Source: Candidatus Heimdallarchaeota archaeon (lineage in GTDB: Archaea; Asgardarchaeota; Heimdallarchaeia; Heimdallarchaeales; Kariarchaeaceae). Taken from it: a stretch of 32,000 bases of DNA. The notes beneath the pieces were generated by a model that saw nothing but the letters and a program-made list of their open reading frames with translations, was not told the origin of the DNA and ran no database searches. Below are positions 1 through 29,629 of the stretch, one piece after another. Made by a program: the position numbers and the translations under genes. The stretch spans positions 180,001 to 212,000 of the forward strand of contig JASBSB010000006.1 of assembly GCA_030149205.1 (NCBI GenBank), read 5' to 3'. Every line of letters begins with the position of its first letter. Within the stretch, counting starts at the first letter, position 1.

Positions 1-225
1 GGAAAACCTACAAAACTAAACACTTTGGAAGCGATAGGGAGCGCACTTTGGATTCTTGGAGAAATGGAAGGTGCTGAGAAGGTATTTCAATCTGAAAAAT
101 ATGGAAAAAACTTCATTGAATTGAACTACGAGAGACTGGAGAGATATGCTAAGGCAAAAAATGCTCAAGAAGTTATTCAAACCCAGGCTGATCTCATGAA
201 AGAGCTTTACTCAGATTTAGCCTGA
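1..225 (+). CDS. tsr3: Tsr3 (DUF367) SSU rRNA aminocarboxypropyltransferase, 3' part only (5'-truncated by window edge)
   Basis: Frame 1 is open from base 1: GKPTKLNTLEAIGSALWILG...KYGKNFIELNYERLERYAKA. This matches the Tsr3 C-terminal pattern GKPxKLsTxEAxaaALxIxG...KWGxxFxELN..LxxY. Confidence 0.82.
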   Translation, partial: GKPTKLNTLEAIGSALWILGEMEGAEKVFQSEKYGKNFIELNYERLERYAKAKNAQEVIQTQADLMKELYSDLA

Positions 226-2429
226 AGGAACACATCATTAATTAGATCATTAATGATATCAAATACGGGTGATCCACTCGTGATAACCTCAGTCTCATTA
301 AAGTAATCAAGAACCTTCAGTATTTTTAGTTTATTCGTAAAATCTTTGAATCTGCGACGTGTGGTGTAGGTATCTGAGGCTGTGACTATTACACAGGTGT
401 AATCATTTCCTATGGGATTTAAAAGTAATACATAACCTTCTTGTTCTATTTTGTTTAAACTACCACTTCCTAAGACCTCTCTGGAGAAAGTTGTTATTGC
501 ACCAAGAAGAGCAGAAACCAAATATTCATCAATTTTTATCTGTGAATTTAATTTTCGAGTAAAAGCTGTTAATCCCGATGACTTCGTTATTAAGATCAAC
601 GCAGGGACCTCATCTTGCTCTCTTGGTTCGTCTGAAGAAGTTGCTTGTTGTAATTGTAAAAGATTTAATAGTCGTATCCCCTCAAAAGCACTTAACTTAG
701 CCAAATTGTTACTTTCGAACCATGACCTAAAGCCATCAATAATACCCTCAGCCTCACTATTAAACTCCATTTCTAAACTTACTGAAACCGATTGGAGTCG
801 TTTATTTATCAGTTGTAACTCTTTTTTCTGTTCTTCTGTGGTTTCCTCTGTTACCAGGGTTTCCGTTACCTCAAGAATGATCTGGTTTGCACCCCTTTCT
901 CGATTTATGCATAAATTTGCGTAAGCCTCAACAATGAAGAATATCATGTTATAATATGGATTTTCTAATTTTAGGATAATGGGTCTTAAGTCGCTTAATA
1001 TTTCAAGAATAAGTTTGATATCCTCTTGAGTTCCATCATTAATGAACAATCTAAAGAGAACCTCAAGATATATGATATTCAACTCTAAGATTTGAGAAAA
1101 TTGATTTTCCTTCTCAGCTACTTCGATACCTTTTTCCACAATCAGTTTTGCGTCACGGAGATTTCCCTTTTTCATAAAAAATACGGAACTTGCATTAATA
1201 AACCATCCAAAGGCATATCGATCGACTATGTTGATTTGATTTACATTCTTAAGTGCAAGCACAAGCTTGTCAAGAGATGAAAAGTTATCAAAGGTGGTTT
1301 CCGCCAATCTCCCTATGAAGATTTCAGCTTCTGGAAAGCTGTTTAATTTGGAATAAAGGTTAGCGAAGTATGCAAAAGTGGCAGGTTCTTTATCATCTGT
1401 AAGTGTAAAGAGGTGTTCTGCCTTTTCTAAAAAGGTTTTTGCGAGTTTTGTGTTGTTACTTTCAAGATAAAGCTTACTTACAAGGAGAGAATAAACTAAT
1501 GACATATTGTAAGTACTCATTTCGTTTAATGTCACAATCACTTGTTCTAATAATTCTCTTCCCTCCTCTCTTCTCCCCTGGACAATTTGACCAACTGCCA
1601 AATTTGCACCTACAGCACCAAATTCTCTCCTGGCCTGAATTAGAGCAAATTGATCAATTGATTCATTCCAAACTTTAAATCCAAGTGATGCTTCGTTTTT
1701 CATCATAAATTGAATGCCCTTCAAGTTGAGATATTGACCATAGTAATAGGGGTCTGAAACACTGTCAATCCAAGAATTCAAAAATTGAATTGTCTCATTA
1801 AATTTTTCAATATCTCCTGAATAAAGAGATTTTATGATAAGGAGTATATAGCCAGGTAATACAAAATTACTCAGTTGATTTTTTGGAATAACTTTCTTGA
1901 ATTGACGAGAATCAGTAAATAATTCGTATTTTCTTATGAATTGATCTGCAAGATCCATATTACGTGAGTAGATCGAATTTAATCCCAATGCATAAATTAT
2001 TTGTAAATATTGCAAAGTTTCAATAAAGGTCAATCCAAAAGATATGTTTTCAGTTAAACTGTCTAATTCCTCATTCAGATCCTCTTTTACTGCATCATAC
2101 TGTGCTTTATAAATCAGAGACATATAATAATAAATTTTAAAATTTCTATTGTCTGTAAACTCCTGAGTTAGCTTCTCTAACATGGAATATTTTCCTTGTA
2201 TGAAGTATAATTTTGCCAAAATGAATGACAAAATCTCAGAACCCTTTGTAGAAACTCGAAACGTGCTTTCCATTGCTTGGGCAAAATCAACATAAAAGTT
2301 ATCAGATTTTGTTACCCTCTCCCAAGATAGAAGAAAACTATCAATTTCAGAGGCGGATAACTCATTAAAATAAAGATTAAGTTCATCTGGAATTGATAGT
2401 TTCCCTAGGTCAGCCGAAGTATACTCCAT
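207..2429 (-). CDS. Large helical/TPR-like repeat protein with C-terminal longin domain
   Basis: 740-aa ORF. Residues ~1-600 are helical with TPR-like patterns (YGQYLNLKGIQF, AVGANLAVGQIVQGRREEGRELLEQ). Residues ~608-736 follow longin order b-b-a-b-b-b-a-a (ALILITK / GLTAFTRKL / DEYLVSALLGAITTFSREVLG / LNKIEQE / YVLLLN / YTCVIVT). Confidence 0.75.
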   Translation of the reverse strand: MEYTSADLGKLSIPDELNLYFNELSASEIDSFLLSWERVTKSDNFYVDFAQAMESTFRVSTKGSEILSFILAKLYFIQGKYSMLEKLTQEFTDNRNFKIYYYMSLIYKAQYDAVKEDLNEELDSLTENISFGLTFIETLQYLQIIYALGLNSIYSRNMDLADQFIRKYELFTDSRQFKKVIPKNQLSNFVLPGYILLIIKSLYSGDIEKFNETIQFLNSWIDSVSDPYYYGQYLNLKGIQFMMKNEASLGFKVWNESIDQFALIQARREFGAVGANLAVGQIVQGRREEGRELLEQVIVTLNEMSTYNMSLVYSLLVSKLYLESNNTKLAKTFLEKAEHLFTLTDDKEPATFAYFANLYSKLNSFPEAEIFIGRLAETTFDNFSSLDKLVLALKNVNQINIVDRYAFGWFINASSVFFMKKGNLRDAKLIVEKGIEVAEKENQFSQILELNIIYLEVLFRLFINDGTQEDIKLILEILSDLRPIILKLENPYYNMIFFIVEAYANLCINRERGANQIILEVTETLVTEETTEEQKKELQLINKRLQSVSVSLEMEFNSEAEGIIDGFRSWFESNNLAKLSAFEGIRLLNLLQLQQATSSDEPREQDEVPALILITKSSGLTAFTRKLNSQIKIDEYLVSALLGAITTFSREVLGSGSLNKIEQEGYVLLLNPIGNDYTCVIVTASDTYTTRRRFKDFTNKLKILKVLDYFNETEVITSGSPVFDIINDLINDVFLQAKSE

Positions 2430-3501: not shown

Positions 3502-5328
3502 TTAAATTTGAGCAACACCATATCCATTGTACGGAGTCCATGCTGTAGATGCAGTTTGGTAGGCAAGAGTGTGTAACAACCCTCTTAAAGTGGATGAACC
3601 AGTGTCTGAGAAAGTGCCTACTGGTAAATGACCATATTGACTGATTAATATTGCGATTACTCCTGTTACATGTGGTGTGGCCATAGAGGTACCTGCCCAT
3701 AGAGCATAAGATGAATCTTTAAAGGTTGAAAAGATCATTTCACCTGGTGCAACAACTTCAAGATAAGATTCAGTATTCGAAAAAACTGAGACCTGATCCT
3801 TTATGTTAGAAGAACCAACAGCAATCACCTCAGGATAAGCTCCGGGGTATGAAACAGGTTCAAGTGTTGAAGTATTTCCATCACCATTGTTTCCAGCTGC
3901 TGCAACCAGCGCAACGTTATGAGAATATGCGAACTGAATTGCTGTGTGGAAAGACTGTGGTGGAACCTCACCTTGTGTGTCAAAGGACATTGAGATAATG
4001 TTTGCATCATCTTTTGTCCCTACAACTCCATCAGGCCCTCTTACTGCTGCATATATTGCTTGAGTTGCCCAACTGTATTCACCTTTACCTGTAGTACCAT
4101 CAACCACCTTCATGGAATATAATTTTGCACCAGGGGCAACTCCCACTACACCTTGTCCATTCTTCAAGGCTGCGATTGTACCTGCTACATGAGTCCCATG
4201 ACCACTGACGTCTGTTAATCCAGTTCCAGTGAAATCCTTACTCCAAACTACCTGACCAGCTAAGTCGGGATGTGAAGCATCAATACCACTATCAAGGACG
4301 GCAATATTTACACCAGAGCCAGTTGAGGATGTAAGAGATATCTTATTATGTAAGACTCTTTGAACTCCCCAAGGTGTTTCTGGGTTGAGATTTGCCCATG
4401 ATGGTAATGAATGACCCTTTACTATATCCAAGATTGAACCTACTGATAAGTTTTTCATGGATTTGACGGTAGCTTTAAGATCTTTGAACAGAGTATTCAA
4501 TGATTTCAATGAGTCTATTCTTTGCTTCAGTTCTGACTTTACGGTTTTTAATGTGTCAACAGAAAAGTTAGATTCTTCAGGGTGCTTGAGCAAGTCATTA
4601 ACCCATTTTAACATTGACCGATGCATATCAACCATATTATTTCTAGCATCTTTCAGATCAGAAATTGCAGTTTTCAGATCTTTAATAGCTTGGTGAACTG
4701 TTGTAGAACCATCCCAATTTTTGGCATAATGTAATGCTACACTCCAGTAGGGAACGCTCCAGTAGGGGACACTCCAATAAGGAACGCTCCAATAAGGAAC
4801 ACTCCAGAAAGGAGTACTCTCAAAGGGGACGCTCCAGTAGGGTGAGTTCTCATAGGGGACACTCCAGTAGGGGACACTCCAGTAGGGGACGCTCCAATAG
4901 GGGACGCTCCAGTAGGGGACGCTCCAGTAGGGGACACTCCAGTAGGGTGAGTTCTCATAGGGGACACTCCAATAGGGGACGCTCCAGTAAGGAACACTCC
5001 AGTAGGGTGAGTTCTCATAGGGGACACTCCAATAGGGGACGCTCCAATAAGGAACGCTCCAGTAGGGTGAGTTCTCATAGGGGACACTCCAGTAGGGGAC
5101 ACTCCAGTAAGGAACACTCCAGTAGGGGACGCTCCAGTAAGGAACACTCCAGTAAGGAACACTCCAATAGGGGACGCTCCAGTAAGGAACACTCCAGTAG
5201 GGTGAATTCGAAAACGGAGTTGATGCAAATGCTGAACTCTTAATTCCTGCAGATGAAAAGGATTGAGGGTTATGCTGAGTTGAGTCAGCTACCACAGTTC
5301 CAATTCCTGGGAAAAGAGCACTTAGCAT
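3502..5328 (-). CDS. S8 subtilisin-like serine protease with N-terminal PYWSV pentapeptide-repeat array and helical prodomain (true start probably ATA at 5370)
   Basis: Triad motifs AVLDSGID, GHGTHVAGT and GTSMATPHV; oxyanion AAAGNNG; mature N-terminus-like TPWGVQRV at aa ~318. The GPDG..D.ANIISMS loop resembles archaeal Tk-subtilisin-type enzymes. Repeats span aa 38-197. Confidence 0.93.
   Translation of the reverse strand: MLSALFPGIGTVVADSTQHNPQSFSSAGIKSSAFASTPFSNSPYWSVPYWSVPYWSVPYWSVPYWSVPYWSVPYWSVPYWSVPYENSPYWSVPYWSVPYWSVPYENSPYWSVPYWSVPYWSVPYENSPYWSVPYWSVPYWSVPYWSVPYWSVPYWSVPYENSPYWSVPFESTPFWSVPYWSVPYWSVPYWSVPYWSVALHYAKNWDGSTTVHQAIKDLKTAISDLKDARNNMVDMHRSMLKWVNDLLKHPEESNFSVDTLKTVKSELKQRIDSLKSLNTLFKDLKATVKSMKNLSVGSILDIVKGHSLPSWANLNPETPWGVQRVLHNKISLTSSTGSGVNIAVLDSGIDASHPDLAGQVVWSKDFTGTGLTDVSGHGTHVAGTIAALKNGQGVVGVAPGAKLYSMKVVDGTTGKGEYSWATQAIYAAVRGPDGVVGTKDDANIISMSFDTQGEVPPQSFHTAIQFAYSHNVALVAAAGNNGDGNTSTLEPVSYPGAYPEVIAVGSSNIKDQVSVFSNTESYLEVVAPGEMIFSTFKDSSYALWAGTSMATPHVTGVIAILISQYGHLPVGTFSDTGSSTLRGLLHTLAYQTASTAWTPYNGYGVAQI
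4738..5217 (-). repeat. Coding tandem repeat, 32 x 15 bp (25 PYWSV, 4 PYENS, PFSNS, PFEST, PFWSV)
   Basis: 480 bp with a strict 15-nt period (plus-strand units such as gggacactccagtag and ggaacgctccaataa). Variation among PYWSV units falls at third codon positions of the subtilase frame. Confidence 0.97.
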
Positions 5329-5377
5329 TACTATTGAGATGACAATGGAAAGTATTTGCCTTCTATTTATGGTAATT

Positions 5378-5384
5378 CCTCCTT
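5378..5384 (-). promoter_or_regulatory. Shine-Dalgarno site AAGGAGG for the subtilase gene
   Basis: Minus strand reads TAAGGAGG-AATTACC-ATA, a 7-nt spacer to an in-frame ATA at 5370. Confidence 0.65.
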
Positions 5385-5577
5385 AAAAGTCGTCGATTGA
5401 CAACTAAGATGCAATGTTTAACTATTCTTACTTAATAAACTTTTTGCAGTTATTAATTGAGTAGTTATTTTTCATAAGGAAATAATTATTAAATTTATTT
5501 TTCGAATTGTTTAACATTTTTTATTTTTGCTTGTTTAATGTATTAACAAAAAATGGAGGATAAAATGACAAGAAGCA

Positions 5578-7842: not shown

Positions 7843-9681
7843 TTACTGGGAAGAATCCTCTAATATTTTTCCATCCAACATTTTAATTATACGAGTCCCA
7901 TATTTTGCAACTTCTGCATCATGAGTAACTAGAATAATTGTTTTACCTCGCTCATGGGCCATTTTAAGTAGCTCCATGATTTTAGCCCCTGTTTTGTGAT
8001 CGAGGTCTCCAGTTGGTTCATCTGCAAATATCAATTCTGGTTCATTCATTAAGGATCGGGCAATTGAGACTCTCTGTTGTTGACCCCCTGAGAGCTTATT
8101 TGGCTCAGTTTTAGAAAATTTGCTTAATTCAACATTTTCAAGAAGTTGTAATGCTCGTTTCTTTTTAGATCCAATCTTATTTGCAGTTCCAAAATCTGCA
8201 GGAAGTCTTACGTTTTCATAAGATTGAAGAAGTGGGATCAGGTTATAATTTTGATAAATAAATGAAATAATATTCCTACGAAAGTATTGCAGGTCACCTT
8301 TTTTTGCTCTTCGCATATCAATGCCAAATACCTTAAGTATACCTCTTTCTGGTTTATCTAAACCTGCCATTAGATTGAGCAATGTTGTTTTTCCTGACCC
8401 AGATGGCCCCATTATAACCACAAATTCACCACGCTTGATTAAGAGATCAATACCTCGAATAGCATAAACTGTGTGAGTGTAAAGTTGATAAGTTTTGGTA
8501 AGATCGCTAGCGAAAACCACGACATTTTCTAGTGGTTCGTCTATATCTGCCTCTACCAAAGCATCTGAACTCATTGGAGAAAAACTAGCTATATCAACAT
8601 AAATGTCTGCTAAAAATCGGAATTTTTCAAAACTGATGTAGAGTAGGTTCATTTTGTTAAGCAAATCTGAAATATTAGATGATGGGGCACCAATTTGAGA
8701 GTTACCTATCTCTTTGTTGAAATTTCTTAGGTTTTCTACATTTGCACTAATTACTTCTTCAAGTCTAATTAAGAGAAGATCTAGATCATCGAGGGATTTT
8801 GGGTTAAGTTTTTCCTCCAGAATTTTATCTATGTTGATCTTGAGTTTCCCTGCCTCTTCGTGAAGATCATTGGGGAGCTCTCTATATCTTTTTACCTGTT
8901 TCCTCGCAGAGTTCAATGAGTCTCTTATTCCAAGAGTCTTTCCAACAATAATACTGGCATATTCCATCAACTGATCTTTAATTGCTTGGTTGGGTAATAC
9001 AAACTCTTTTGCGGATGTGCTATGTAAGTCATCAATAAAAACCTGTAGATGTTTAAACAATATTTCACTATATTCCAATAATTTAGGCAAATGTAATGAA
9101 GACATCTGAAGCAGCACTAATTCATCAGCTATGTTAGTTAATTGAGATGAGGGGTTTTCTAAGGAATAAGCGAGTGAACCAATTATCAAATTGTTTTCTT
9201 TAACAACTTCATGTCCCCATATAGTAACATTGGTATTTTTGTAAATCTCTTCAACTTGACTTCTTATTTCAGCAGGAATTCCTTTGATGATACCATAATG
9301 TTCATTATTCATATTGAGTAATTTTGATAAATTTCGAATAACTTTCAATGAACTTTTCAATTCCTCATCCTGGGACAATTCTTTTTCTATCTTCTTTGCA
9401 ACTTTTTTTGAATGATTCCTTTGTATCTTCCTGAACTTATCTAGGAAAATTTGTCTTTGAGGACCTGATGAAAATCGCTGTACGGGAAGAGTAGCAATTG
9501 CGTAAGCAAAAATGTTAAGATCCTCCACATTCGAAGTAGTCTTGGAAAATCGTCTTTGAAATATTCTACCCCTACCAGAATCTAATGTTGATTTCAATTT
9601 AGCATTCAGATCTAGATTTTCTCTTTGATAAGGCCGGTAGGTGGGAATTATTGAAATAAAATTTATTGTTTGATCTGTCAT
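7843..9681 (-). CDS. ABC ATPase (LolD/MacB/FtsE family) fused to a 386-aa N-terminal soluble domain of unknown function
   Basis: C-terminal 225 aa contain GPSGSGKT, LSGGQQQR, DEPTGDLD and VTHD. The N-terminal part is helical with no TM segment. ATGA overlap with the upstream ATPase at 9678-9681. Confidence 0.9.
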   Translation of the reverse strand: MTDQTINFISIIPTYRPYQRENLDLNAKLKSTLDSGRGRIFQRRFSKTTSNVEDLNIFAYAIATLPVQRFSSGPQRQIFLDKFRKIQRNHSKKVAKKIEKELSQDEELKSSLKVIRNLSKLLNMNNEHYGIIKGIPAEIRSQVEEIYKNTNVTIWGHEVVKENNLIIGSLAYSLENPSSQLTNIADELVLLQMSSLHLPKLLEYSEILFKHLQVFIDDLHSTSAKEFVLPNQAIKDQLMEYASIIVGKTLGIRDSLNSARKQVKRYRELPNDLHEEAGKLKINIDKILEEKLNPKSLDDLDLLLIRLEEVISANVENLRNFNKEIGNSQIGAPSSNISDLLNKMNLLYISFEKFRFLADIYVDIASFSPMSSDALVEADIDEPLENVVVFASDLTKTYQLYTHTVYAIRGIDLLIKRGEFVVIMGPSGSGKTTLLNLMAGLDKPERGILKVFGIDMRRAKKGDLQYFRRNIISFIYQNYNLIPLLQSYENVRLPADFGTANKIGSKKKRALQLLENVELSKFSKTEPNKLSGGQQQRVSIARSLMNEPELIFADEPTGDLDHKTGAKIMELLKMAHERGKTIILVTHDAEVAKYGTRIIKMLDGKILEDSSQ

Positions 9682-10373
9682 TTAACAAGCTCTCCATTTT
9701 CTACTATTTTTCCATCATCAATTCTAATCACCCTATCACAGAGTGAACCTATGAATTCAGAATGAGTCACCAATAACAGAGTTTGTTTGTTTTCTTTATT
9801 GACCCGTCTGAATAGCTTCATTACATCCTCAGAAGAGGATAGGTCAAGGTCTCCTGTGGGTTCATCTCCTAAAATTAAAGCAGGTGTTGTAATTAATGAC
9901 CTTGAAATTGCAACTCGTTGCTCCTGTCCTCCAGAAAGTTCTCTTGGGAAATGTTGCACCCTACCGCCTAGGCCAAGTTCTCTCAAGAGAGTTGTTGCTT
10001 TGGTACTTGCATTATTTAAGCTGTATCCCTGTATGAGAAGAGGAAGCATAACATTCTGTTCTGCAGTTAAATACTCTAATAAATTAAAATGTTGAAATAT
10101 ATATCCAATTCTGTCTCTTCTTAAAGCTGCTAGTTCTTCTTCTGATAGTTTTGTTACATCTGATTCTTCAACGAATATTTTACCAGAAGAGACAGGGGTT
10201 AACCCACCGATAACATTTAACAAGGTAGATTTTCCAGACCCAGAAGGCCCCATCAATGCAACCATCTCACCCTCATTTATTGTCAGTGATATATCATCAA
10301 GCGCAACAACTTCATTCGTTTTACCCTGGTTATAAACTTTCTTAACATCAATTAGCTCTAACATTTTCTTCAT
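9678..10373 (-). CDS. ABC transporter ATP-binding protein (LolD/MacB/FtsE family)
   Basis: GPSGSGKS, LSGGQEQR, DEPTGDLD, VTHS; 231 aa; a GGTGA RBS overlaps the permease stop codon. Confidence 0.95.
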   Translation of the reverse strand: MKKMLELIDVKKVYNQGKTNEVVALDDISLTINEGEMVALMGPSGSGKSTLLNVIGGLTPVSSGKIFVEESDVTKLSEEELAALRRDRIGYIFQHFNLLEYLTAEQNVMLPLLIQGYSLNNASTKATTLLRELGLGGRVQHFPRELSGGQEQRVAISRSLITTPALILGDEPTGDLDLSSSEDVMKLFRRVNKENKQTLLLVTHSEFIGSLCDRVIRIDDGKIVENGELVK

Positions 10374-10381
10374 GATTTCAC

Positions 10382-13300
10382 CTAACCTGTATACCTCAAT
10401 GCATCACTAGGAGGGATGCGTGATCCAAATAACCCTGGCAAAACAGCTGCAAGCAGTGCTGAACCTAGAGTGATAGCTATATAGATAGTAAGGATGTCTA
10501 TGGGGATAAGAAGCTGAACACTGGTTCCAGCACTTCCAGATCCTGACCGTATGATCCCATAGGCGAGCACAATCCCATTAATTATACCAATCACAAGGCC
10601 TATAAGACCAGTCACTATCAACTCTAACATAACAGCATATAAGACATCACGTCTTCTGAACCCAAGGGCTCGTAACATCCCAATTTCTCGTTTTCGTTCA
10701 GCCACTGATCTGTAAGCCACAACAAATAAACCGAGGATACCTACAACGAATCCCATTGAGGTGAAAGCTTGTAGGAATCCGAAAAATCTGAATTGACCCT
10801 CAAGTTGAGCCTCAAATATTGAATAGACTGAAAATCCATAGACACCAAATAATCCATACTTAGTTCGAAAGGCAGATCCATTTTTATTTGAAAAAATTTC
10901 AATATCAGTAATTAAACGGTCGATGCTTTTACTTCTAACATCTCCTGCATTACTTTGACCGAGAAATACATTTTGTGACGTTGTTAAACCTGAATAGGCA
11001 GTTAAGTTTTGCGTCCATTGATCTGAGACGAACCAAATACCTGACCCAGCCCCTGGTGGCCCTCCTCCTTGACTTTGTGAATTCAATGGGTTTTCTCCCA
11101 AAATTGATCCCACGACGAACTCTTGTAAACCTCCTGTAGTAAGGTTTAACCAAACAGAATCCCCAGGTCTCTTCAGTTGTTTAACTTGTCCACCTTGGAA
11201 GCTTACCAGAGTATTGAGTAGGATAATAGGTCGTAAAGTACCATTTTTATTGGGGATATACGTGTTATTGCTAAGTGCCTTCCAAACGGCTTCATCTTCT
11301 TTATTCGCAGAGGGTTGCCCTTGGATATTTTTACCTGTTTCAAAGGGGGTACCTGTTTTGTTGTCCAGTAGATTGAATTTTAAAATCCAAGAACCTTTAC
11401 TATCCCACAATGAATTTGAATTCACTGTTAGTAAGGTTCCTCCTCGTTTAAGTGACCCGTTTTTCTGCAGATATCCAGTTGTGGGATTTGAATAGGTGAA
11501 TCCTTTCACAAAATTTAACTTAAGACCACTGTTATTACCAGGTGTCTGAAAATGGTCAGTTAACTGTTTTGAATAATTCACCGAATTGGGTATGGGTTGC
11601 CCCGTGAGAAGCATTACATCTGAACCTGAGGTTGCTGTAAGTATGACATTGTCAAACCCATATCTAAAACTATAGCTAAATGTCCCAAGAAAGATATTCA
11701 GGGTTAAGATCGTTGCAAACAGAGCAAATGTCAATGTGGATCTAACCTTCTTGCTCCTCATTTGTCTGAAAGCAACCATTGATGTCCCTCGAATTGGAGT
11801 TTTCTTGGTCCGAGCAAACAGATTAAACAACCATTCTCCCACGTTAGCAATAAAATCAAGGTTTGTTCCTATAAGGGCAATTGTCCCCACAATTAGACTA
11901 AACATCAAATAAAGAATATAGTTCAACCCTCCTGATCCAGTTTTAATCCAATCAAAAACAACAAAAATATTGAAATACGCCCAGAAAACAAGGCCTGCTG
12001 AGGCAAGAGTTAGCCCAAGCTTCTTTGATCTGTAGTAGGCCAATAATAAACTGGGTCCAACTATTAGCGTTAAAATATTTAAATAATTAGTTTCACTAGT
12101 TGTAAAGTTTGTGAACGCCTCTTGCCCCTTATAAAAAACACTGTCTTGATAAAGAAGATTCTGAAATATTGCAAGAACTGTTAAAATAGCTCCTAGGTAT
12201 AAACTTTTCTTTCCAAATTTTTCAGAGCTAGGAGGCTTGATTCCTCTTAGAACCTCAGCTATATTTACACGTGATGCGTTAATCGCAGGGATAAGTCCAG
12301 TTATCTGTGAGAGAACAATACCTGCAATAAATGAGTTAATTATAATTTGAGTTGTAATCACTAAACTTAGGTCTGTTAGAGATATCCCAAAACTGTAACT
12401 AAGTATCAGGATTAAAATCTGACCATAAGCGGCCCCTCCAAGGATTCCAAACGCTGAACCAATAATACCTAGAAACAGAGATTCGGTAAGATTGGTCATG
12501 GTGATCTGGAATCTAGATGCGCCAATAGCTCTTACAATGCCTGTTTCCTTTTCTCTTGATTGTAGTGCCAATGATTGAATATTAACGATTACCAGCACAG
12601 CTGCAAACGCTATGAGACTTCCAAAGACATTTAATAACAGGGTTAAACTATCGGCAATCAGTTTAACAAAACTGTCTATTACAACTATTGAATTTGAATA
12701 CTGATAAAATTGGCTAAATTGAGGTCCAATAATCAATTTAAAGGCATCACGCGTTGCATTAAATGCCATAGTTCTTTTGTCATTGGTGTTTACATCAGCC
12801 TTCCAATGAACGATAATTTGATTGATTGGATTTACACCGTAGCCAATAACTGGTAAAACTGATTTTGCTCGCTTCGATTGTAAAGCATCTTTCATGACTT
12901 GTTGAACCCAACTAAGAGGAGCTGCGATGAATCTGCTTAACTGCTCTTTACCTTTACCATTATCCTCAAACACACCTTTTACCAGAATTGATTTGTTATA
13001 AGAAATTAATGAAGATGGAATTGGGAATTTCCCGAAAGGAACTGCTAGACTATTGAATGAGCCAGAAATAGTCAGGTTCTGTCCAATAATCTTGTCATTT
13101 TTTGCAAATAGAAGATTAGCAAGAGACCGCCCGATATATACTTCTCCCGGTTTTAAATCTGAGATTTTTAATATTTGGTTATTTTTGTTTGTTAAATCTC
13201 CGAATCCTGTTTCATTTTTTGGGATACCAACAAATGGCTCTGAAATTTCTATTGTTCCCAGCAGATCATTTACCACCGTCACTGAAAACTGTAATCTTTG

Positions 13301-13624
13301 AGAAAGAGATCCCACATATTGGTTCACTGTTGAATTAGACCTCAACTCATTCAGATAATTTTGTGCATAAGTGTTCTTTCCAGAAGGCAAAATATTCGTG
13401 TAGGTATTGTTATCCACGAAGAAATTTGTAACCCTATTTGTTATAGCTGCATCTTTACTTCCAAGGTTATGTTTAGCTACAGCACCAAAACCTTGTGCAA
13501 GGGTGTCACTGCCAACTTGTATTCCAATAAAAAGTGAAACTCCTAAAAAAATACCTAAAAGAACTGCAAGGTTTTGAGAAGGTCTACGAAACACATACTT
13601 TCTTGAAAGACCAATAATTACCAT
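10382..13624 (-). CDS. MacB/FtsX-type (type VII ABC) permease with internally duplicated architecture
   Basis: 1080 aa. Two modules, each with a TM, a large extracellular domain and an FtsX motif (SREKETGIVRAIGASR; ERKREIGMLRALGFRR), plus intervening TM helices. Confidence 0.92.
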   Translation of the reverse strand: MVIIGLSRKYVFRRPSQNLAVLLGIFLGVSLFIGIQVGSDTLAQGFGAVAKHNLGSKDAAITNRVTNFFVDNNTYTNILPSGKNTYAQNYLNELRSNSTVNQYVGSLSQRLQFSVTVVNDLLGTIEISEPFVGIPKNETGFGDLTNKNNQILKISDLKPGEVYIGRSLANLLFAKNDKIIGQNLTISGSFNSLAVPFGKFPIPSSLISYNKSILVKGVFEDNGKGKEQLSRFIAAPLSWVQQVMKDALQSKRAKSVLPVIGYGVNPINQIIVHWKADVNTNDKRTMAFNATRDAFKLIIGPQFSQFYQYSNSIVVIDSFVKLIADSLTLLLNVFGSLIAFAAVLVIVNIQSLALQSREKETGIVRAIGASRFQITMTNLTESLFLGIIGSAFGILGGAAYGQILILILSYSFGISLTDLSLVITTQIIINSFIAGIVLSQITGLIPAINASRVNIAEVLRGIKPPSSEKFGKKSLYLGAILTVLAIFQNLLYQDSVFYKGQEAFTNFTTSETNYLNILTLIVGPSLLLAYYRSKKLGLTLASAGLVFWAYFNIFVVFDWIKTGSGGLNYILYLMFSLIVGTIALIGTNLDFIANVGEWLFNLFARTKKTPIRGTSMVAFRQMRSKKVRSTLTFALFATILTLNIFLGTFSYSFRYGFDNVILTATSGSDVMLLTGQPIPNSVNYSKQLTDHFQTPGNNSGLKLNFVKGFTYSNPTTGYLQKNGSLKRGGTLLTVNSNSLWDSKGSWILKFNLLDNKTGTPFETGKNIQGQPSANKEDEAVWKALSNNTYIPNKNGTLRPIILLNTLVSFQGGQVKQLKRPGDSVWLNLTTGGLQEFVVGSILGENPLNSQSQGGGPPGAGSGIWFVSDQWTQNLTAYSGLTTSQNVFLGQSNAGDVRSKSIDRLITDIEIFSNKNGSAFRTKYGLFGVYGFSVYSIFEAQLEGQFRFFGFLQAFTSMGFVVGILGLFVVAYRSVAERKREIGMLRALGFRRRDVLYAVMLELIVTGLIGLVIGIINGIVLAYGIIRSGSGSAGTSVQLLIPIDILTIYIAITLGSALLAAVLPGLFGSRIPPSDALRYTG

Positions 13625-25870: not shown

Positions 25871-28800
25871 TTATAATTTGCTCAATGTCCCATTATTTGG
25901 TCTATACAAACCCCCTTGTTTGACTAAATCACGGATTGCTTTTTCAACAAATTCAGAAGACAGTCCGGCTTGTTCTGCCTCAGCATACACTTCACTATCC
26001 TTAAAAGGTCCAGATGAGATGTTTTGAAGATGATCAATGATTTGCATTAATCTTGAAATCTTTGACCTTCTTACCGAAGTAATACCGCTTGCAAAGGCAT
26101 CATAATCCAATTGACCAGATTCTGGATCAATAGCTATTTGAGTGAGGCTATATTTTATGAGGTCTATTGCTTTCTGAGCATCCTGTTTTGTAACTGTGTC
26201 TCGTAGTGCGATCCTTGCTCTTGCCTCTGCTAATCTCACTATCCCTTCTAGCTGCCTTGCAGTAACAGGGATTGAACCGTTTCCCTCAACGTTACCTGAG
26301 TTTCTTAAGTTAACATAGAAATCTTGGATCGTGTCTACAGATTCTCTGGAAAGCTTTGGATGAGATTTTTGTTTTGCAAAAGCAATATATTTTCGTAGTT
26401 TATCAAGGTCAATTGGTGGATTTTCAATGAGATTTGAATCATAGTTGAAATGCAAGTTTAAGATATGTTCTGCTTTTGATTGGTCTTCTTTCTCATCTGG
26501 AAGGTCTCGAAGCGTAAAAATAAGATCGAAACGCGACATAATTGCAGGGGACAAATTTACATTTTCAACAAAGGTTTGATTTGGGTTATATCTTCCTAAT
26601 TTGGGGTTTGCTGCTGCAAGTACCCCTGTTCGAGAATTTAAAGTTGCGACGATACCGGCCTTAGCTATACTTATGGTGTTATGACAGATTAAAGAACCAG
26701 ACAGAAAGTTTTGTTGTGGTTCCACTGTTATATCATAAACATACTCTGCGTTAGAAATTTGAGAACTTTCTATTGTTTGGACATCAACAACCCTTGCCCA
26801 TCCGAGCTGTAAAAGTTCACGAATCTCTTTGATTTCAGATTGTATATACACTAATACCTCACTATATTTTGAAATTAGCTGTTGGTTTTGAGATTTTAAA
26901 TCAGAATAAACCAGAATCTCTTCAAGGGAATTAAGACTGGATTGTAACTTGGACTTGGACGATTGGTTTAACTTTATTGGAACAAATTCATTATCCAGTA
27001 CCATTTGAAGCTCTTTAACCCTTAACGAAAAAAATTCAGGTAATGAGTCAGAATAACTGTTATCCCCATAAAGAGGAACATAGGTTGATATGGGAGTTTC
27101 TTTTGAATTTATTAGGTCAATTGATTGAGTGTTTAGATTAAAATAAAATAGGGGATGGTCATCTGTAACAACAAAAGAAATTCCATTTGAGAGCTTAATC
27201 AAAATAAACTGTTGCGGCCCTTTATGTCTTACCAACCTCATAATTTTTGAAGTTTGTTTTACTTTATCACCTAGGTCAAAGGAGTCTGTTTCAAGATATA
27301 AACCATCAACCCTTGATAAGTCGAGAATTTCACAGTTTGGAGCTGGTTCGATTTTCGTTTTATTTTCTGCAAAATATTTTTCTACAAGCTCTCCCAGCTT
27401 CCATTCAACGCCATTAATTTTTACTGGGTGATCAAAATGATAAGATTGTTGTTCCATTGCCTCATGTATAGCCGATCGATCATTGTCACTCATTTTATCA
27501 AATTCATCTATCAGACATACACCTTTATCAGCAAGAACTAACGCACCTGCCTCTAAAGTTAAATCACCTGTATCAGGGTCTCGAATCACAGCTGCCGTAT
27601 TATGGATTAAAAACCCATTTCCGATAAAATTATGTGAATCTTTTACGGTCAAATCATATACAAAATCGAATTCAGACCTTACATAACTTACATCTGTAAT
27701 CTTACTCCATCCCAGAGTGCTCTTTTTAAGATTGTCAATAAAATTTAACTGGTTTACAATATAGGAATGTTTTGCCTCCAACCTTCTTAATAAGTCTTTG
27801 AGAAACACTACAGTCGTAGTTGGTAAAAGTAGTTCCATGTTACGAATTATATTTTGAAGATGAGAGTAGCTAATTTTTATATTTGTGTCCTGATTTGGGT
27901 CGCCAAACAACAGTTGAGCAAGTTCTTTTTCAGTAACTGATAGCAATAATGACACCTTTCTTAAACTAGAGAAATCTACAAGTTTATGAAGCAAAGTTTG
28001 GATTTCTATCTCGGTTAATTTCGAGGATAAATTTTGGAGCAATGGAGTTTCACTTGTGACACTTTCGAGGTATTGGAGCTTAAGCTCCTGTTTCAACCCT
28101 TCAGATTTATCAAGGACATATTTTTGAATTTGTGGGTCTCCATTTACTGTCGCAATGACATCCCCTCGGCTTAAACTTTTAGATTTCATCCAGACAAATC
28201 CATTAATTGGGTCAAATGTGAAAATTGAGGTTTCTGGTGTCATTCTAACTGAGTTACCGAAAGATTCTGTGACCTGTACAAGAAAAGGTGGAGCCTTAAT
28301 TTTCCAAACATTTTCAATGAGCCCCTCTTTTTGTTTTAAGTTCGCTGAATGAGTAGTTGCATTATTTCCTATTAATTCCATTGACTGTTCAAGAGGTGAC
28401 TCCAAACCAACCTTTTTACTTAAGTGAAAAACAGGTTCAATTAAATCTTTTATTTTTATTAGATTCGAATTTATGGTGATTTCTGTATCTCCAGCAACAC
28501 AAAGCCCTGCTGCACTCGATCCTTTCCCAGATGTGTAAACTCCACGTGGTGCGATCTTATGAACAGCTTTGAGTAACTGGGATTTTGCCACCCCAGGGTC
28601 ACCAACCAATAAGATATTAGTTTGTCCCCTTGTTTTAAATCCATTCGGATGAACTTTGTCCACCCCTCCAAAGAGGAAAAACATAATTGCCTCTTTCTCC
28701 TTTTCTAGCCCCTTGATCTGAGGGGCAAGTGATTGAATAACCATATCATAAATATCTGGGGATTGAGAGAGTTCCAAAAACTCATTCTCCTCCTCCAAGG

Positions 28801-29629
28801 TTATCTCTGTTAGATCTGTATCTTTGTTCATCGGTTCAACAAACACTGCATCAACCCAAAGATCCAGAATAGCTTGTTTACCCTTCTTAAATCCTTCTGC
28901 ATTTCTCGTTTTTACTATTCCAGTTAGAATAGCCCGATCTCCTGGTCTTACTATGTCAACTAAATCATCCATCAATCTACAGGAAATTGATTTGGGGCTA
29001 GCACCAGAAACCAACTCCTCTGGTCTCTCTTGAAGAGTTATGGACTGCCAATCAATTAAGTTGGAGTCAGCAATGGAGAGAAAAAAATCTTTACTCCTAC
29101 ATGTTGGCTCACTACATCTTCTGGGAGTGGAATAGTTCCCTTGCACAAGAGGAACAAGTACAGAATGTTCTGGATTTTCCCTGCAAATAAAATGTGCAGT
29201 AACCATCAGTGGTTTAATTTCAGAGGTTCTAACCACTATACCCTCAATAACTTTTAATGCACCAATCTGGTTACTTCGAATATTTCTTAACTCAATCTTT
29301 GATGGTACGTTCGTAAATCTTGCGTGAAATTTGTCTCGATTAAAGAGTGTAATTTCTTGGAAATATTCAAAATCTTCTTGTTTGATTTGATTCTCAAGAG
29401 CAAGAGTCGCTGCCTCAATTGTCTCTTCGGGGAGTTCAATTAAAGCAGAGCTTAATCCCAGCTCATGTGTTGCATCCATGAGATATAGATCATTAAAATC
29501 TATGACTAGGCTTCTTTCCCCATCTTTAATCATTCTTGTAATTTCATCGTCATATCTATAACTCCCATCTTCGGCTTGGAAATTCTTGAAGAACTCCAAA
29601 AACCCGTTCATCAAATCTTGGTCAAGCAT
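25871..29629 (-). CDS. mcm: MCM replicative helicase precursor with two inteins (about 695 aa after splicing)
   Basis: QERPEE, Walker A GDPGVAKS, Walker B IDEFDKM, Arg finger SRFD, TARQLE, C-terminal winged helix. 1252-301-256=695 aa. Zn finger C-x5-H-x16-C-x4-C. Confidence 0.97.
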   Translation of the reverse strand: MLDQDLMNGFLEFFKNFQAEDGSYRYDDEITRMIKDGERSLVIDFNDLYLMDATHELGLSSALIELPEETIEAATLALENQIKQEDFEYFQEITLFNRDKFHARFTNVPSKIELRNIRSNQIGALKVIEGIVVRTSEIKPLMVTAHFICRENPEHSVLVPLVQGNYSTPRRCSEPTCRSKDFFLSIADSNLIDWQSITLQERPEELVSGASPKSISCRLMDDLVDIVRPGDRAILTGIVKTRNAEGFKKGKQAILDLWVDAVFVEPMNKDTDLTEITLEEENEFLELSQSPDIYDMVIQSLAPQIKGLEKEKEAIMFFLFGGVDKVHPNGFKTRGQTNILLVGDPGVAKSQLLKAVHKIAPRGVYTSGKGSSAAGLCVAGDTEITINSNLIKIKDLIEPVFHLSKKVGLESPLEQSMELIGNNATTHSANLKQKEGLIENVWKIKAPPFLVQVTESFGNSVRMTPETSIFTFDPINGFVWMKSKSLSRGDVIATVNGDPQIQKYVLDKSEGLKQELKLQYLESVTSETPLLQNLSSKLTEIEIQTLLHKLVDFSSLRKVSLLLSVTEKELAQLLFGDPNQDTNIKISYSHLQNIIRNMELLLPTTTVVFLKDLLRRLEAKHSYIVNQLNFIDNLKKSTLGWSKITDVSYVRSEFDFVYDLTVKDSHNFIGNGFLIHNTAAVIRDPDTGDLTLEAGALVLADKGVCLIDEFDKMSDNDRSAIHEAMEQQSYHFDHPVKINGVEWKLGELVEKYFAENKTKIEPAPNCEILDLSRVDGLYLETDSFDLGDKVKQTSKIMRLVRHKGPQQFILIKLSNGISFVVTDDHPLFYFNLNTQSIDLINSKETPISTYVPLYGDNSYSDSLPEFFSLRVKELQMVLDNEFVPIKLNQSSKSKLQSSLNSLEEILVYSDLKSQNQQLISKYSEVLVYIQSEIKEIRELLQLGWARVVDVQTIESSQISNAEYVYDITVEPQQNFLSGSLICHNTISIAKAGIVATLNSRTGVLAAANPKLGRYNPNQTFVENVNLSPAIMSRFDLIFTLRDLPDEKEDQSKAEHILNLHFNYDSNLIENPPIDLDKLRKYIAFAKQKSHPKLSRESVDTIQDFYVNLRNSGNVEGNGSIPVTARQLEGIVRLAEARARIALRDTVTKQDAQKAIDLIKYSLTQIAIDPESGQLDYDAFASGITSVRRSKISRLMQIIDHLQNISSGPFKDSEVYAEAEQAGLSSEFVEKAIRDLVKQGGLYRPNNGTLSKL
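26678..27445 (-). mobile_element. Intein 2 in MCM (256 aa, aa 729-984), Ser1-initiated, no LAGLIDADG motif
   Basis: Interrupts HEAMEQQ|TISIAKAG. Starts SYHFDH, block B VTDDHP, block F VYDITV, ends CHN with +1 Thr. Confidence 0.92.
27599..28501 (-). mobile_element. Intein 1 in MCM (301 aa, aa 377-677), no LAGLIDADG motif
   Basis: Interrupts SSAAGL|TAAV. Starts CVAGDT, block F VYDLTV, ends IHN with +1 Thr. Confidence 0.93.

What the first reader, a model, noticed from the sequence alone, without database searches (positions are those of the whole stretch)
4738..5217. Subtilase carrying 32 tandem aromatic pentapeptides (PYWSV)n: top candidate for an undescribed system
Seen: 160 residues of strict period 5 (25 PYWSV, 4 PYENS, PFSNS, PFEST, PFWSV). 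Of these, 58 are Trp/Tyr/Phe and 32 are Pro. The array lies between the signal peptide and the prodomain of an intact S8 protease. Synonymous-only variation among PYWSV units points to selection on the peptide. Read as [STV]-P-[YF]-x-[SN], the unit fits the small-x-hydrophobic register of pentapeptide-repeat beta-helices but has Pro at the second position. Inferred alternatives: (a) a new aromatic solenoid or self-assembling fibre/anchor with stacked W/Y ladders; (b) an adhesin or substrate-binding surface; (c) a multi-core peptide precursor released by its own fused protease, by analogy with repeat-core RiPP precursors (cyanobactin precursors processed by the S8 enzymes PatA/PatG; Tyr/Trp-rich cores fused to plant BURP cyclases). 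I do not recognise this repeat as a named family.
Basis: partly seen in the sequence, partly recalled or inferred. Interest (0 to 1): 0.8.

Follow-up and report, generated by a model that had tools for sequence, protein, structure and literature searches.

The report
Aromatic-repeat tail on Heimdallarchaeial subtilases
A secreted protease of an Asgard (Heimdall-type) archaeon really does carry 32 tandem PYWSV-type units, and this undescribed, strongly selected aromatic tail marks a small family of such proteases whose purpose (most likely keeping the enzyme stuck to a surface) is still untested.

Summary
They lie between a signal peptide and an intact S8 catalytic domain.

The array is not an oddity of one genome. 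At least 11 related proteases from independent assemblies (two records are labelled Candidatus Heimdallarchaeota) share the plan: signal peptide, then 12 to about 70 or more motifs [P/A]-[F/Y]-[W/Y]-S-[T/V/M/F] spaced 5 or 10 residues apart, then a variable Lys-rich helical linker, then a Tk-subtilisin-like domain. They form one clade (support 100/100). Third codon positions are near saturated while aromatic-aromatic-Ser stays fixed.

No Pfam, NCBIfam, PDB, Atlas or literature match describes the array. AlphaFold2 gives it no fold (pLDDT 26-31). No RiPP maturase lies nearby, and the gene neighbourhoods differ between loci. The PatA/PatG model scores far below its cut-off, and the "prodomain" is not an I9 domain.

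My best reading (about 35%) is a disordered, K/R-free aromatic sticker tail that retains an otherwise anchorless protease on a surface. Rivals are a self-consumed pseudo-substrate pro-region, a multi-copy peptide precursor, and a Trp-laddered beta-solenoid.

This scan earlier noted bacterial S8 proteases with C-terminal Trp pentapeptide tails. That is a similar theme, not the same family.

The parts
5378..5384 (-). Shine-Dalgarno-like AAGGAGG, 7 nt upstream of the proposed start
   Evidence: Read directly from the sequence
5368..5370 (-). Proposed non-canonical ATA start codon. An in-frame TAA lies at 5383-5385, and the first ATG (5328) falls inside the signal-peptide core.
   Evidence: Relatives G053 and G054 start with TTG after GAGGTGA.
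5287..5370 (-). Signal peptide, residues 1-28: basic n-region NRRQ, hydrophobic core, V-V-A then D-S
   Evidence: Read from the translation. AlphaFold2 helix 2-17. No signal-peptide predictor was run.
5218..5286 (-). Lead-in of degenerate units (residues 29-51, ...SAGIKSSAFAST). Relatives have similar lead-ins (GGFKATAF, AGGFAAAGF).
4738..5217 (-). Aromatic repeat array: 32 pentapeptides (25 PYWSV, 4 PYENS, PFSNS, PFEST, PFWSV), with no Lys or Arg
   Evidence: pLDDT about 26 and 31.
4381..4737 (-). Lys-rich helical linker (residues 212-330). It has no Pfam family above cut-off, and its length varies from about 35 to 117 residues among relatives.
   Evidence: (helices 224-319, pLDDT up to 95)
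3505..4380 (-). Peptidase S8 catalytic domain (residues 331-622), Tk-subtilisin-like. It ends without any C-terminal extension or anchor.
   Evidence: Pfam 3.9e-52. PDB Tk-subtilisin 3.9e-59. Foldseek 2z56 TM-score 0.82 normalised by target length.
4291..4293 (-). Catalytic Asp360
4198..4200 (-). Catalytic His391
3889..3891 (-). Oxyanion-hole Asn494
3685..3687 (-). Catalytic Ser562
3958..3993 (-). Substrate-binding strand SMSFDTQGEVPP. Other subtilisins have S-L-G-G here. The change is shared by all repeat-bearing relatives and absent from the repeat-less sister clade.
3502..3504 (-). Stop codon

Best explanation
The array is the defining module of a small, monophyletic family of secreted Tk-subtilisin-like proteases of Heimdall-type Asgard archaea. 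The module is a chain of short linear motifs, [P/A]-[F/Y]-[W/Y]-S-[T/V/M/F], repeated 12 to about 70 or more times at 5- or 10-residue spacing. It is predicted to be disordered, very aromatic, free of Lys and Arg, and mildly acidic.

Proposed mechanism: the protein is exported by its signal peptide, which is then cut off. The catalytic domain has no C-terminal membrane anchor, unlike several other large subtilases of the same genome. The aromatic tail therefore acts as a multivalent sticker. It would hold the enzyme on the cell envelope or membrane interface, or on organic particles, so that the peptides it releases stay near the producing cell. The lack of Lys/Arg and the altered substrate-binding strand may limit self-digestion of the tail, or allow slow self-trimming.

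Shown: the architecture, its conservation, purifying selection on the motif, the absence of a predicted fold, the extreme interfacial hydrophobicity, the Lys/Arg depletion, and the absence of a C-terminal extension. Inferred: signal-peptide cleavage, binding to a surface, the identity of that surface, and the fate of the tail.
For: Same architecture in at least 11 proteins from independent assemblies: window, P0003, P0004, G053/L005, G054/L019, G042, G043, G047, G051, L018, and the N-terminal fragment G079. The repeat-bearing catalytic domains form one clade with 100/100 support, sister to repeat-less secreted S8s of the same archaea. Purifying selection: third-position heterozygosity is 0.31-0.47, while the aromatic, Trp and Ser codons are fixed at positions 1-2. 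Ser is written as both AGY and TCN in the same arrays. AlphaFold2 gives pLDDT 26 in context and 31 alone, with no secondary structure. The array is the most interfacially hydrophobic 160-residue window among 1983 ORFs of the genome (-46.9 kcal/mol on the Wimley-White scale, values entered from my own knowledge), yet Pro at every fifth residue makes transmembrane helices unlikely. Lys/Arg in the spacers: 4 seen against 65 expected. The protein ends right after the catalytic domain. The genome carries about 14 S8 genes, and at least 5 of the large ones end in a hydrophobic segment plus a basic tail. General context: surface-attached peptidases are thought to tighten hydrolysis-uptake coupling in subseafloor sediments, and Heimdallarchaeia there encode amino-acid degradation enzymes (PMC9979476).
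Against: No experiment or expression data were available. Generic stickiness does not explain the near-invariance of Ser, the fixed order aromatic-aromatic-Ser, or spacing that is a multiple of 5 in 227 of 237 intervals. Acidic spacers and the absence of Lys/Arg should weaken binding to anionic membranes. A disordered stretch full of x-[P/A]-[F/Y] sites tethered to a subtilisin is what such enzymes usually cut (the classic substrate is suc-AAPF-pNA; my own knowledge). The tail may therefore not survive on the mature enzyme. Small repeat-less secreted S8s of the same genome also lack anchors, so an anchor is not obligatory.
Confidence: 0.35

Rival explanations
1. Self-consumed pro-region. Each unit is a tethered pseudo-substrate for the enzyme's own active site. 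One register is S-x-[P/A]-[F/Y] then W-S, with P2 = Pro/Ala and P1 aromatic as in suc-AAPF. The other is x-[P/A]-[F/Y]-W then S. The array would occupy or inhibit the protease during and just after export and then be chewed away. Only the protease is the product, and copy number sets the delay.
For: The catalytic domain is closest to Tk-subtilisin and to intracellular subtilisins. The latter are inhibited by a short N-terminal [LVI]-[IFLV]-P-[YFH] motif that lies across the active site (PMC6220982), and V-P-Y in the unit resembles it. The family lacks an I9 prodomain. The array sits where subtilase pro-regions sit. In decapeptide versions the conserved block is D-P-Y-W-S-T, around the putative scissile bond, while the interiors vary. 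The substrate-binding strand is changed in exactly the repeat-bearing clade.
Against: Dozens to about a hundred copies are far more than inhibition needs, and an array with 58 to 147 aromatic residues is costly for a throw-away part. The LIPY/F pattern is not met at its first position (Ser). Pro is replaced by Ala in about half the units of G053 and P0003. The change at the Gly127-equivalent position could narrow the S1 pocket and disfavour aromatic P1 residues (my own knowledge, untested). Repeat-less sister enzymes manage without any pro-region.
Confidence: 0.25
2. Multi-copy peptide precursor fused to its own processing protease. The enzyme cuts every unit and releases dozens of aromatic penta- or decapeptides (for example WSVPY or SVPYW). 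These peptides are the functional product: a signal, an antimicrobial or a self-assembling peptide. The analogy is with yeast alpha-factor and Kex2, Bacillus Phr peptides and subtilisin, or cyanobactin PatE with PatA/PatG.
For: Identical units are kept by selection at the peptide level. Aromatic residues are costly. S8 proteases process multi-copy precursors in other systems (my own knowledge). The scan's earlier notes on bacterial S8s with Trp pentapeptide tails beside membrane sensors raise the same idea, but those notes are unchecked.
Against: No maturase, transporter or receptor gene is conserved next to the gene in four neighbourhoods. The PatA/PatG model scores 46.7 against a cut-off of 421, and no PatG-type structure is among the best 50 Foldseek matches. 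Within one protein the would-be products differ: position 1 is A, P, I, V, L or Y in G053, and the spacers of G054 vary. That does not fit one defined bioactive peptide. Units abut with no recognition spacer.
Confidence: 0.12
3. The array folds into a regular beta-solenoid related to pentapeptide-repeat proteins. F/Y would sit at the inward centre position, T/V at i-2, a small Ser at i+2, and Trp would form exposed ladders. This would give a rigid stalk or a binding surface.
For: Spacing is a multiple of 5 in 227 of 237 intervals, even where spacers have diverged, and the spacers keep the template x-h-h-[SAG]-[DNT]. In the window, PYENS recurs every 4 units three times, which is one quadrilateral coil. 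Weak profile hits to the SV2C luminal pentapeptide beta-helix align F/Y with its central Phe (E 0.08).
Against: AlphaFold2 gives pLDDT 26-31 and no strands, and the ESMFold2 run of the complex job also left the peptide unfolded. Pfam pentapeptide models find nothing at E<=1. Higher-order periods differ between proteins (20, 15 and 10 residues). Met, Phe or Asp at the would-be inward i-2 position in several members fits poorly. The PDB hit is not significant.
Confidence: 0.12
4. Assembly artefact, or a functionless low-complexity expansion from replication slippage.
For: Tandem 15-nt arrays are hard to assemble. Several relatives break at contig ends or hold N gaps in the array. Raw reads could not be examined.
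Against: The array is in frame on a 669-kb contig, with 18 distinct unit spellings that differ synonymously. The same module occurs in at least 10 other independent assemblies across several genera and families. Aromatic-aromatic-Ser is conserved while codons are scrambled.
Confidence: 0.03

Closest known systems
Tk-subtilisin of Thermococcus kodakarensis (PDB 2z2x, 2e1p and others) and subtilases in general (Pfam PF00082, MEROPS S8)
   Same: The catalytic domain is about 42% identical, E 3.9e-59, TM-score 0.82 normalised by target length. It has the same Asp/His/Ser triad and oxyanion Asn, is exported by a signal peptide, and is archaeal.
   Different: Tk-subtilisin has a 69-residue alpha/beta I9-type propeptide. 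Here there is no I9 domain, but a 160-residue aromatic repeat plus a helical linker. The substrate-binding strand reads S-F-D-T-Q-G instead of S-L-G-G.
Intracellular subtilisin proteases (ISPs) with the inhibitory N-terminal LIPY/F motif (PDB 2x8j, 2wv7; PMC6220982)
   Same: They are the second-closest solved relatives (about 1e-51). Instead of a folded prodomain they carry a short N-terminal hydrophobic-Pro-aromatic motif that binds across the active site, and V-P-Y in the unit resembles it.
   Different: ISPs have one copy, no signal peptide, and the pattern [LVI]-[IFLV]-P-[YFH]. Here there are dozens of copies, Ser sits at the first position, Pro is often Ala, and the protein is secreted.
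Pentapeptide-repeat proteins (Pfam PF00805 clan; for example the SV2C luminal domain, MfpA, Qnr)
   Same: Strict period 5, a hydrophobic or aromatic residue at a fixed position, and small residues two positions away. There is a weak profile hit to SV2C.
   Different: No Pfam match, no predicted beta-helix, Pro in nearly every unit, and an aromatic doublet with invariant Trp/Tyr-Ser.
Multi-copy peptide precursors cut by S8 proteases: yeast alpha-factor with Kex2, Bacillus Phr peptides with subtilisin/Epr/Vpr, cyanobactin PatE with PatA/PatG (my own knowledge)
   Same: Tandem identical short peptides behind a signal peptide, with an S8 protease as the processing enzyme.
   Different: Here the precursor and protease are one polypeptide. 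No basic or AYD-type recognition sites, maturases or receptors are seen. The PatA/PatG model is far below its cut-off.
Bacterial S8 subtilases with C-terminal Trp-every-fifth-residue tails noted earlier by this scan (SSWSG, GGTWS, SNAWD, SWAGK, xARQW units)
   Same: An S8 protease joined to an undescribed period-5 array with Trp, often W-S, encoded by 15-nt repeats (unchecked notes).
   Different: Those tails are C-terminal, Gly/Ser-rich rather than Pro/aromatic-doublet, occur in soil bacteria, and usually sit beside a membrane sensor gene. Here the array is N-terminal, archaeal and has no conserved neighbour. No sequence relationship was tested.
Cohesive aromatic low-complexity domains (FG-nucleoporin repeats, elastin-like VPGXG polymers; my own knowledge)
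   Same: Uncharged, disordered, periodic aromatic 'stickers' separated by polar spacers. Such domains show multivalent self-association or surface association.
   Different: This array is extracellular, has a much higher aromatic density (31-42% in most members, 24% in G054), has Trp, lacks Gly, and is fused to a protease.

Membership tests
Peptidase S8 (subtilase) | Pfam PF00082 above the gathering score | tested here: met
   177.8 bits against 21.8, E 3.9e-52
Peptidase S8 (subtilase) | Asp-His-Ser triad in that order, plus the oxyanion Asn | tested here: met
   Asp360, His391, Asn494 and Ser562 lie in conserved motifs. The columns are invariant or nearly so in a 46-sequence alignment.
Classical secreted subtilisins with an I9 propeptide (Tk-subtilisin, BPN') | N-terminal Inhibitor_I9 alpha/beta prodomain | tested here: not met
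   No I9 hit at E<=1. The segment is all-helical in AlphaFold2.
PatA/PatG cyanobactin maturation proteases | NCBIfam TIGR03895 above its cut-off | tested here: not met
   46.7 bits against a cut-off of 421. The best 50 Foldseek matches are subtilisins or intracellular subtilisins, with no PatG-type structure.
RiPP multi-core precursor systems | Maturase, transporter or immunity genes conserved beside the precursor | tested here: not met
   Window neighbours are an S33 hydrolase, a GNAT, an LRR protein, gelsolin and a MacB-type ABC system. The neighbours differ in L001, L003 and L004/L005.
RiPP multi-core precursor systems | Release of discrete modified peptides | not testable with these tools
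   Needs LC-MS of the wild type against the Ser562Ala mutant.
Pentapeptide-repeat proteins (PF00805 clan) | Match to a Pfam pentapeptide model | tested here: not met
   No pentapeptide family at E<=1.
Pentapeptide-repeat proteins (PF00805 clan) | Right-handed quadrilateral beta-helix fold | tested here: inconclusive
   AlphaFold2 pLDDT 26-31 with no strands. A weak SV2C profile hit at E 0.08. Register kept in 227 of 237 intervals.
ISP-type LIPY/F inhibitory pro-peptide | Motif [LVI]-[IFLV]-P-[YFH] (PMC6220982) | tested here: not met
   The unit reads S-[VTMF]-[PA]-[YF]. The first position is always Ser, and Pro is Ala in 32 of 70 units of G053 and 17 of 37 units of P0003.
Extensin-like proteins | Pfam PF02095 above its cut-off | tested here: not met
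   17.5 bits against 105. This is a compositional match.
Aromatic-doublet repeat subtilases of Heimdallarchaeia (family proposed here) | Signal peptide, then at least 12 motifs [PA][FY][WY]S[TVMF] at 5- or 10-residue spacing, then an S8 domain with S-[FL]-[DG]-[ST] in the substrate-binding strand | tested here: met

The most novel reading that the evidence does not exclude
The protease and its substrate are one polypeptide. After export the subtilase cuts its own tail at every x-[P/A]-[F/Y]/W-S junction and releases dozens of identical aromatic pentapeptides (WSVPY-type). These would act as a diffusible signal, an antimicrobial or a self-assembling material. That would make this an archaeal, self-contained counterpart of the alpha-factor/Kex2 or Phr/subtilisin systems, in the lineage closest to eukaryotes.
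Probability: 0.12. Interest if true: 0.85.

Novelty: new variant of a known kind. Interest (0 to 1): 0.55.

Why it matters
Subtilases are among the best-studied enzymes, yet this N-terminal module has no name, no predicted fold and no paper in the libraries searched. It is kept by strong selection across several genera of Heimdallarchaeia, the archaea closest to eukaryotes, and it is costly: up to 147 aromatic residues per protein.

If it is a retention device, it would be a new way for a cell without an outer membrane to hold on to an exoenzyme. That bears on how sediment archaea feed on detrital protein. If the tail is cut into peptides, it would be the first self-processing multi-copy peptide factory in archaea.

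There is also a practical lesson. Gene callers truncated at least two family members to 372 residues (P0005, P0006), and short-read assemblies break inside the array. Such modules are therefore under-counted in protein databases. Together with the bacterial Trp-tailed subtilases noted earlier in this scan, this points to a recurrent, unexplained partnership between S8 proteases and period-5 Trp arrays.

Tried and rejected
1. Complex prediction of the catalytic domain (residues 322-621, aligned) with eight repeat units gave 'no answer' (ipSAE 0.00 and 0.01; controls were not run). It is not used as evidence either way.
3. phmmer of the array against 1.84 billion representatives gave 2714 hits at E<=0.001. 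Among the best 150, only the protein itself, P0003 and P0004 carry [FY]WS units. The rest are unrelated period-5 proline repeats: PLGSI/PLSSI in giant bacterial proteins, and IPYHT, LPYLT or TVPYR in probably spurious ORFs.
4. Word-based searches of the array region found only the protein itself and P0003 (near lengths) and nothing among shorter proteins.
6. The ESM Atlas feature search gave no usable hit.
7. Literature searches for the unit strings, for Heimdallarchaeota plus subtilisin, and for Trp-rich tandem pentapeptide propeptides found nothing relevant.
8. I compared the residue at unit position 5 (V, T, M or F) by eye with residues at the S4-pocket equivalents (104, 107, 126) in seven members and saw no clear complementarity. 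There are too few independent points.
9. The 740-residue neighbour (207-2429, minus strand) is homologous to a gene 5 kb from P0003 (27% identity, E 5e-84) but not to the large neighbour in G053. I read this as residual synteny, not a functional partner.
10. A Tat reading of the signal peptide (NRRQIL) is not supported: the relatives have no twin arginine.
Full report
OBSERVATION

The minus strand of the window carries one open frame, 3502-5370. Residues 52-211 (window 4738-5217, exactly the coordinates given) are 32 consecutive pentapeptides: 25 PYWSV, 4 PYENS, and one each of PFSNS, PFEST and PFWSV. They contain 58 aromatic residues and 32 prolines. Tandem Repeats Finder sees the same array: period 15, 30.9 copies, score 441.

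The 32 units are spelled in 18 different ways. All differences among the PYWSV units are synonymous third-position changes. The array occurs once in the 3.3-Mb genome, and no other period-5 aromatic-doublet array is present.

Downstream lies an intact Peptidase_S8 domain (Pfam 177.8 bits) with Asp360, His391, Asn494 and Ser562.

Two corrections to the first description:
- The signal peptide exists only if translation starts at ATA 5370, 7 nt after AAGGAGG. An in-frame TAA precedes it, and the first ATG falls inside the hydrophobic core.
- The roughly 120 residues between the array and the catalytic domain are not a known prodomain. No Inhibitor_I9 hit appears at E<=1. AlphaFold2 predicts long Lys-rich helices there, with pLDDT up to 95.

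ORGANISM AND CONTEXT

The window also encodes gelsolin, a RagA/Gtr1-Arf-type GTPase, an intein-bearing MCM and an LRR protein. That set is typical of Asgard archaea. The two closest family members that carry record titles are labelled Candidatus Heimdallarchaeota.

The immediate neighbours of the gene are an S33 alpha/beta hydrolase and a GNAT. Further off lies a MacB-type ABC system. No radical-SAM, P450, YcaO, BURP or similar maturase is present.

The neighbourhoods of three orthologues (L001, L003, L004/L005) differ from the window and from each other. The one exception is a 740-residue cytoplasmic protein shared with L001, which I read as residual synteny.

A FAMILY, NOT A SINGLETON

A homology search found two full-length relatives with the same plan:
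- P0003 has AFWSM, PFWSM and PYWSV units.
- P0004 has PYWSF and PFWSF units with DQSAQ spacers.

Two 372-residue 'relatives' turned out to be truncated gene calls:
- Upstream of P0005, the frame is open for 909 residues and holds 70 [AP]FWST-type motifs.
- Upstream of P0006, at least 55 PYWST/PYWSV units run to the contig start.

A DNA pattern scan of 400 genomes of the phylum and a protein search of the class added further members:
- G054/L019: decapeptides such as LLLAD-PYWST.
- G042 and G043: PFWST.
- G079: PYW[NS]T.
- G047: PFYSF. G051: PFYST. In these two, Tyr replaces Trp.

Orthologues at E<=1e-70 occur in 9 of 83 genomes of the class: 4 of 11 in the window's own family, 3 of 3 in a second family, and 1 of 2 in a third. 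Several arrays sit at contig ends or contain N gaps, so the distribution is underestimated.

In a maximum-likelihood tree of catalytic domains, the repeat-bearing proteins form one clade (100/100). The clade also holds P0009, a 347-residue protein from a 1,076-bp contig that I had labelled repeat-less without examining its N-terminus. This clade is sister to a clade of small repeat-less secreted S8s from the same archaea. Tk-subtilisin and the intracellular subtilisins lie outside.

WHAT IS CONSERVED

The motif is [P/A]-[F/Y]-[W/Y]-S-[T/V/M/F].

- Within a protein, position 5 is uniform or nearly so: V 26/26, T 70/70, F 22/22, and mostly M (24/37) in P0003. It differs between proteins. Position 1 is the most variable.
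- Third codon positions are close to saturation (heterozygosity 0.31-0.47), while the aromatic, Trp and Ser codons do not vary at positions 1-2. Ser is written with both AGY and TCN codons inside the same arrays. That switch needs two non-synonymous steps, so it indicates selection for Ser itself.
- Motif-to-motif spacing is a multiple of five in 227 of 237 intervals across seven proteins. This holds even where the spacers have diverged completely, and those spacers keep the template x-hydrophobic-hydrophobic-[S/A/G]-[D/N/T].
- The spacers almost lack Lys and Arg (4 seen, 65 expected from the proteome composition) and are enriched in Asp and Glu (114 against 68). The linker that follows is rich in Lys.
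- All repeat-bearing members replace the substrate-binding strand that reads S-L-G-G in Tk-subtilisin (residues 125-128 of subtilisin BPN' by my own knowledge) with S-F-[D/G]-[S/T] (once S-L-D-S) plus an E-x-P-P segment. The repeat-less sister clade and Tk-subtilisin keep S-L-G-[A/G]. This is one evolutionary event, not independent replication.

STRUCTURE

AlphaFold2 on the full protein with a 46-sequence alignment gives a confident catalytic domain and helical linker. The array gets pLDDT about 26.

The array alone, with an alignment of arrays from five other members, gives pLDDT 31, pTM 0.10 and no secondary structure.

Foldseek finds Tk-subtilisin first, and no PatG-type structure among the best 50 matches.

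A profile of the arrays against PDB sequences gives only non-significant hits (E 0.08-0.4). These are to the SV2C/SV2A luminal pentapeptide beta-helix, with the motif's F/Y aligned to its central Phe.

On the Wimley-White interfacial scale (values from my own knowledge), PYWSV scores -2.1 kcal/mol per unit. The array is the most interface-seeking 160-residue window among 1983 ORFs of the genome, on a par with polytopic membrane proteins. Pro at every fifth residue, however, makes transmembrane helices unlikely.

IS IT KNOWN?

I found no description of it:
- Pfam gives only a sub-threshold Extensin match for the N-terminal part.
- NCBIfam gives nothing for it.
- The ESM Atlas gives no usable hit.
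- Full-text searches for the unit strings and related terms found nothing.
- A phmmer search of 1.84 billion representatives is swamped by unrelated period-5 proline repeats. Among the best 150 hits, the only true relatives are the protein itself, P0003 and P0004.
- Word-based searches agree.

The scan's earlier notes describe bacterial S8 proteases with C-terminal Trp-every-fifth-residue tails, often beside membrane sensors. The theme is similar, but position, composition, host and gene context all differ. I did not test any sequence relationship.

HOW IT MOST LIKELY WORKS

Four readings remain.

(1) Retention or adhesion tail (about 35%). The protein is exported and ends without any anchor. 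The genome has about 14 S8 genes, and at least 5 of the large ones end in a hydrophobic segment plus a basic tail. A disordered, extremely aromatic, multivalent tail is physically suited to hold the enzyme on the envelope, on the membrane interface or on particles. Surface attachment of peptidases is thought to tighten hydrolysis-uptake coupling in sediments (PMC9979476). Against this reading: generic stickiness does not explain the invariant Ser, the fixed residue order or the kept register, and the acidic spacers should oppose binding to anionic membranes.

(2) Self-consumed pseudo-substrate pro-region (about 25%). Read as S-x-[P/A]-[F/Y] then W-S, each unit mimics the classic subtilisin substrate AAPF (my own knowledge). 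It also resembles the inhibitory LIPY/F motif of intracellular subtilisins, although it fails that pattern at the first position and often at Pro. In decapeptide versions the conserved block surrounds the putative cut site while the interiors vary. Against this reading: the copy number and the cost in aromatic residues.

(3) Multi-copy peptide factory (about 12%). This is not excluded, but it has no support from gene context, and the products would be heterogeneous within a single protein.

(4) Trp-laddered beta-solenoid (about 12%). The conserved register and the weak SV2C hit favour it. Two structure predictors and the Pfam models do not.

An artefact or functionless expansion is unlikely (about 3%).

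These readings are partly compatible. A sticky leash that is slowly trimmed by its own protease would combine (1) and (2).

VERDICT

Neither the solenoid reading nor the RiPP reading gains support, and the 'prodomain' is a helical linker.

I class this as a new variant of a known kind: a Tk-subtilisin-like protease with an undescribed, family-defining N-terminal aromatic-doublet repeat module, so far seen only in Heimdall-type Asgard archaea. Its function is open, and the experiments that would settle it are ordinary ones (express wild type and Ser562Ala, then MS, binding assays and CD). Interest 0.55.

Noticed in passing
window 5368-5385 (minus strand): The subtilase appears to start at ATA, 7 nt after AAGGAGG and just after an in-frame TAA. 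The first ATG (5328) would cut the signal peptide in half. Orthologues in G053 and G054 start with TTG after GAGGTGA, so the ATA is peculiar to this genome or is a sequencing error.
   Followed up: partly
L005:32-2761, L018:8-2044, L004:3353-6119: Public gene calls truncate family members to 372 residues (P0005, P0006), omitting arrays of several hundred residues. Spurious ORFs of 210-269 residues are called on the opposite strand across the repeat. Scaffold L004 holds an N gap inside the array.
   Followed up: yes
window 4734-5243 (+) and 4737-5228 (-): Two long ORFs in other frames of the array (RGHSS... and GVFLTGAS... repeats) are mechanical by-products of the 15-nt periodicity, not genes.
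   Followed up: partly
window 207-2429 (minus strand): A 740-residue cytoplasmic protein with no Pfam match. It is homologous over its full length (27% identity, E 5e-84) to a 741-residue protein 5 kb from the P0003 subtilase in L001.
   Followed up: partly
G000: C7:283327-287715, C4:589766-591622, C1:116361-119393, C7:211364-215656, C7:269018-272626: The genome carries about 14 S8 subtilase genes. Several large ones end in a GGF/AGF-like motif, a hydrophobic segment and a basic tail, which looks like a C-terminal sorting or anchor signal.
   Followed up: no
P0123, P0128, P0131, P0133 and many others: Giant bacterial proteins (2000-5600 residues) carry dozens to more than 100 tandem P-[LFVI]-[GSA]-[SA]-[IV] pentapeptides (PLGSI, PLSSI, PFGAI). 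They give only sub-threshold Pfam Pentapeptide_2/4 matches and seem to be a separate, widespread period-5 proline repeat class.
   Followed up: partly
P0181: A high-GC, apparently bacterial protein has tandem PHWGT units interrupted by PYLDM, PYEDS and PFVDA spacers. Superficially it is the closest non-archaeal look-alike of the PYWSV/PYENS pattern. It has no Pfam domain.
   Followed up: no
window 25871-29629 (minus strand): An MCM helicase gene interrupted by an intein (Intein_splicing, 97.7 bits).
   Followed up: no
window 7843-13624 (minus strand): An operon of a 1080-residue duplicated FtsX/MacB-type permease and two ABC ATPases. One ATPase carries about 390 extra N-terminal residues of unknown function.
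   Followed up: no
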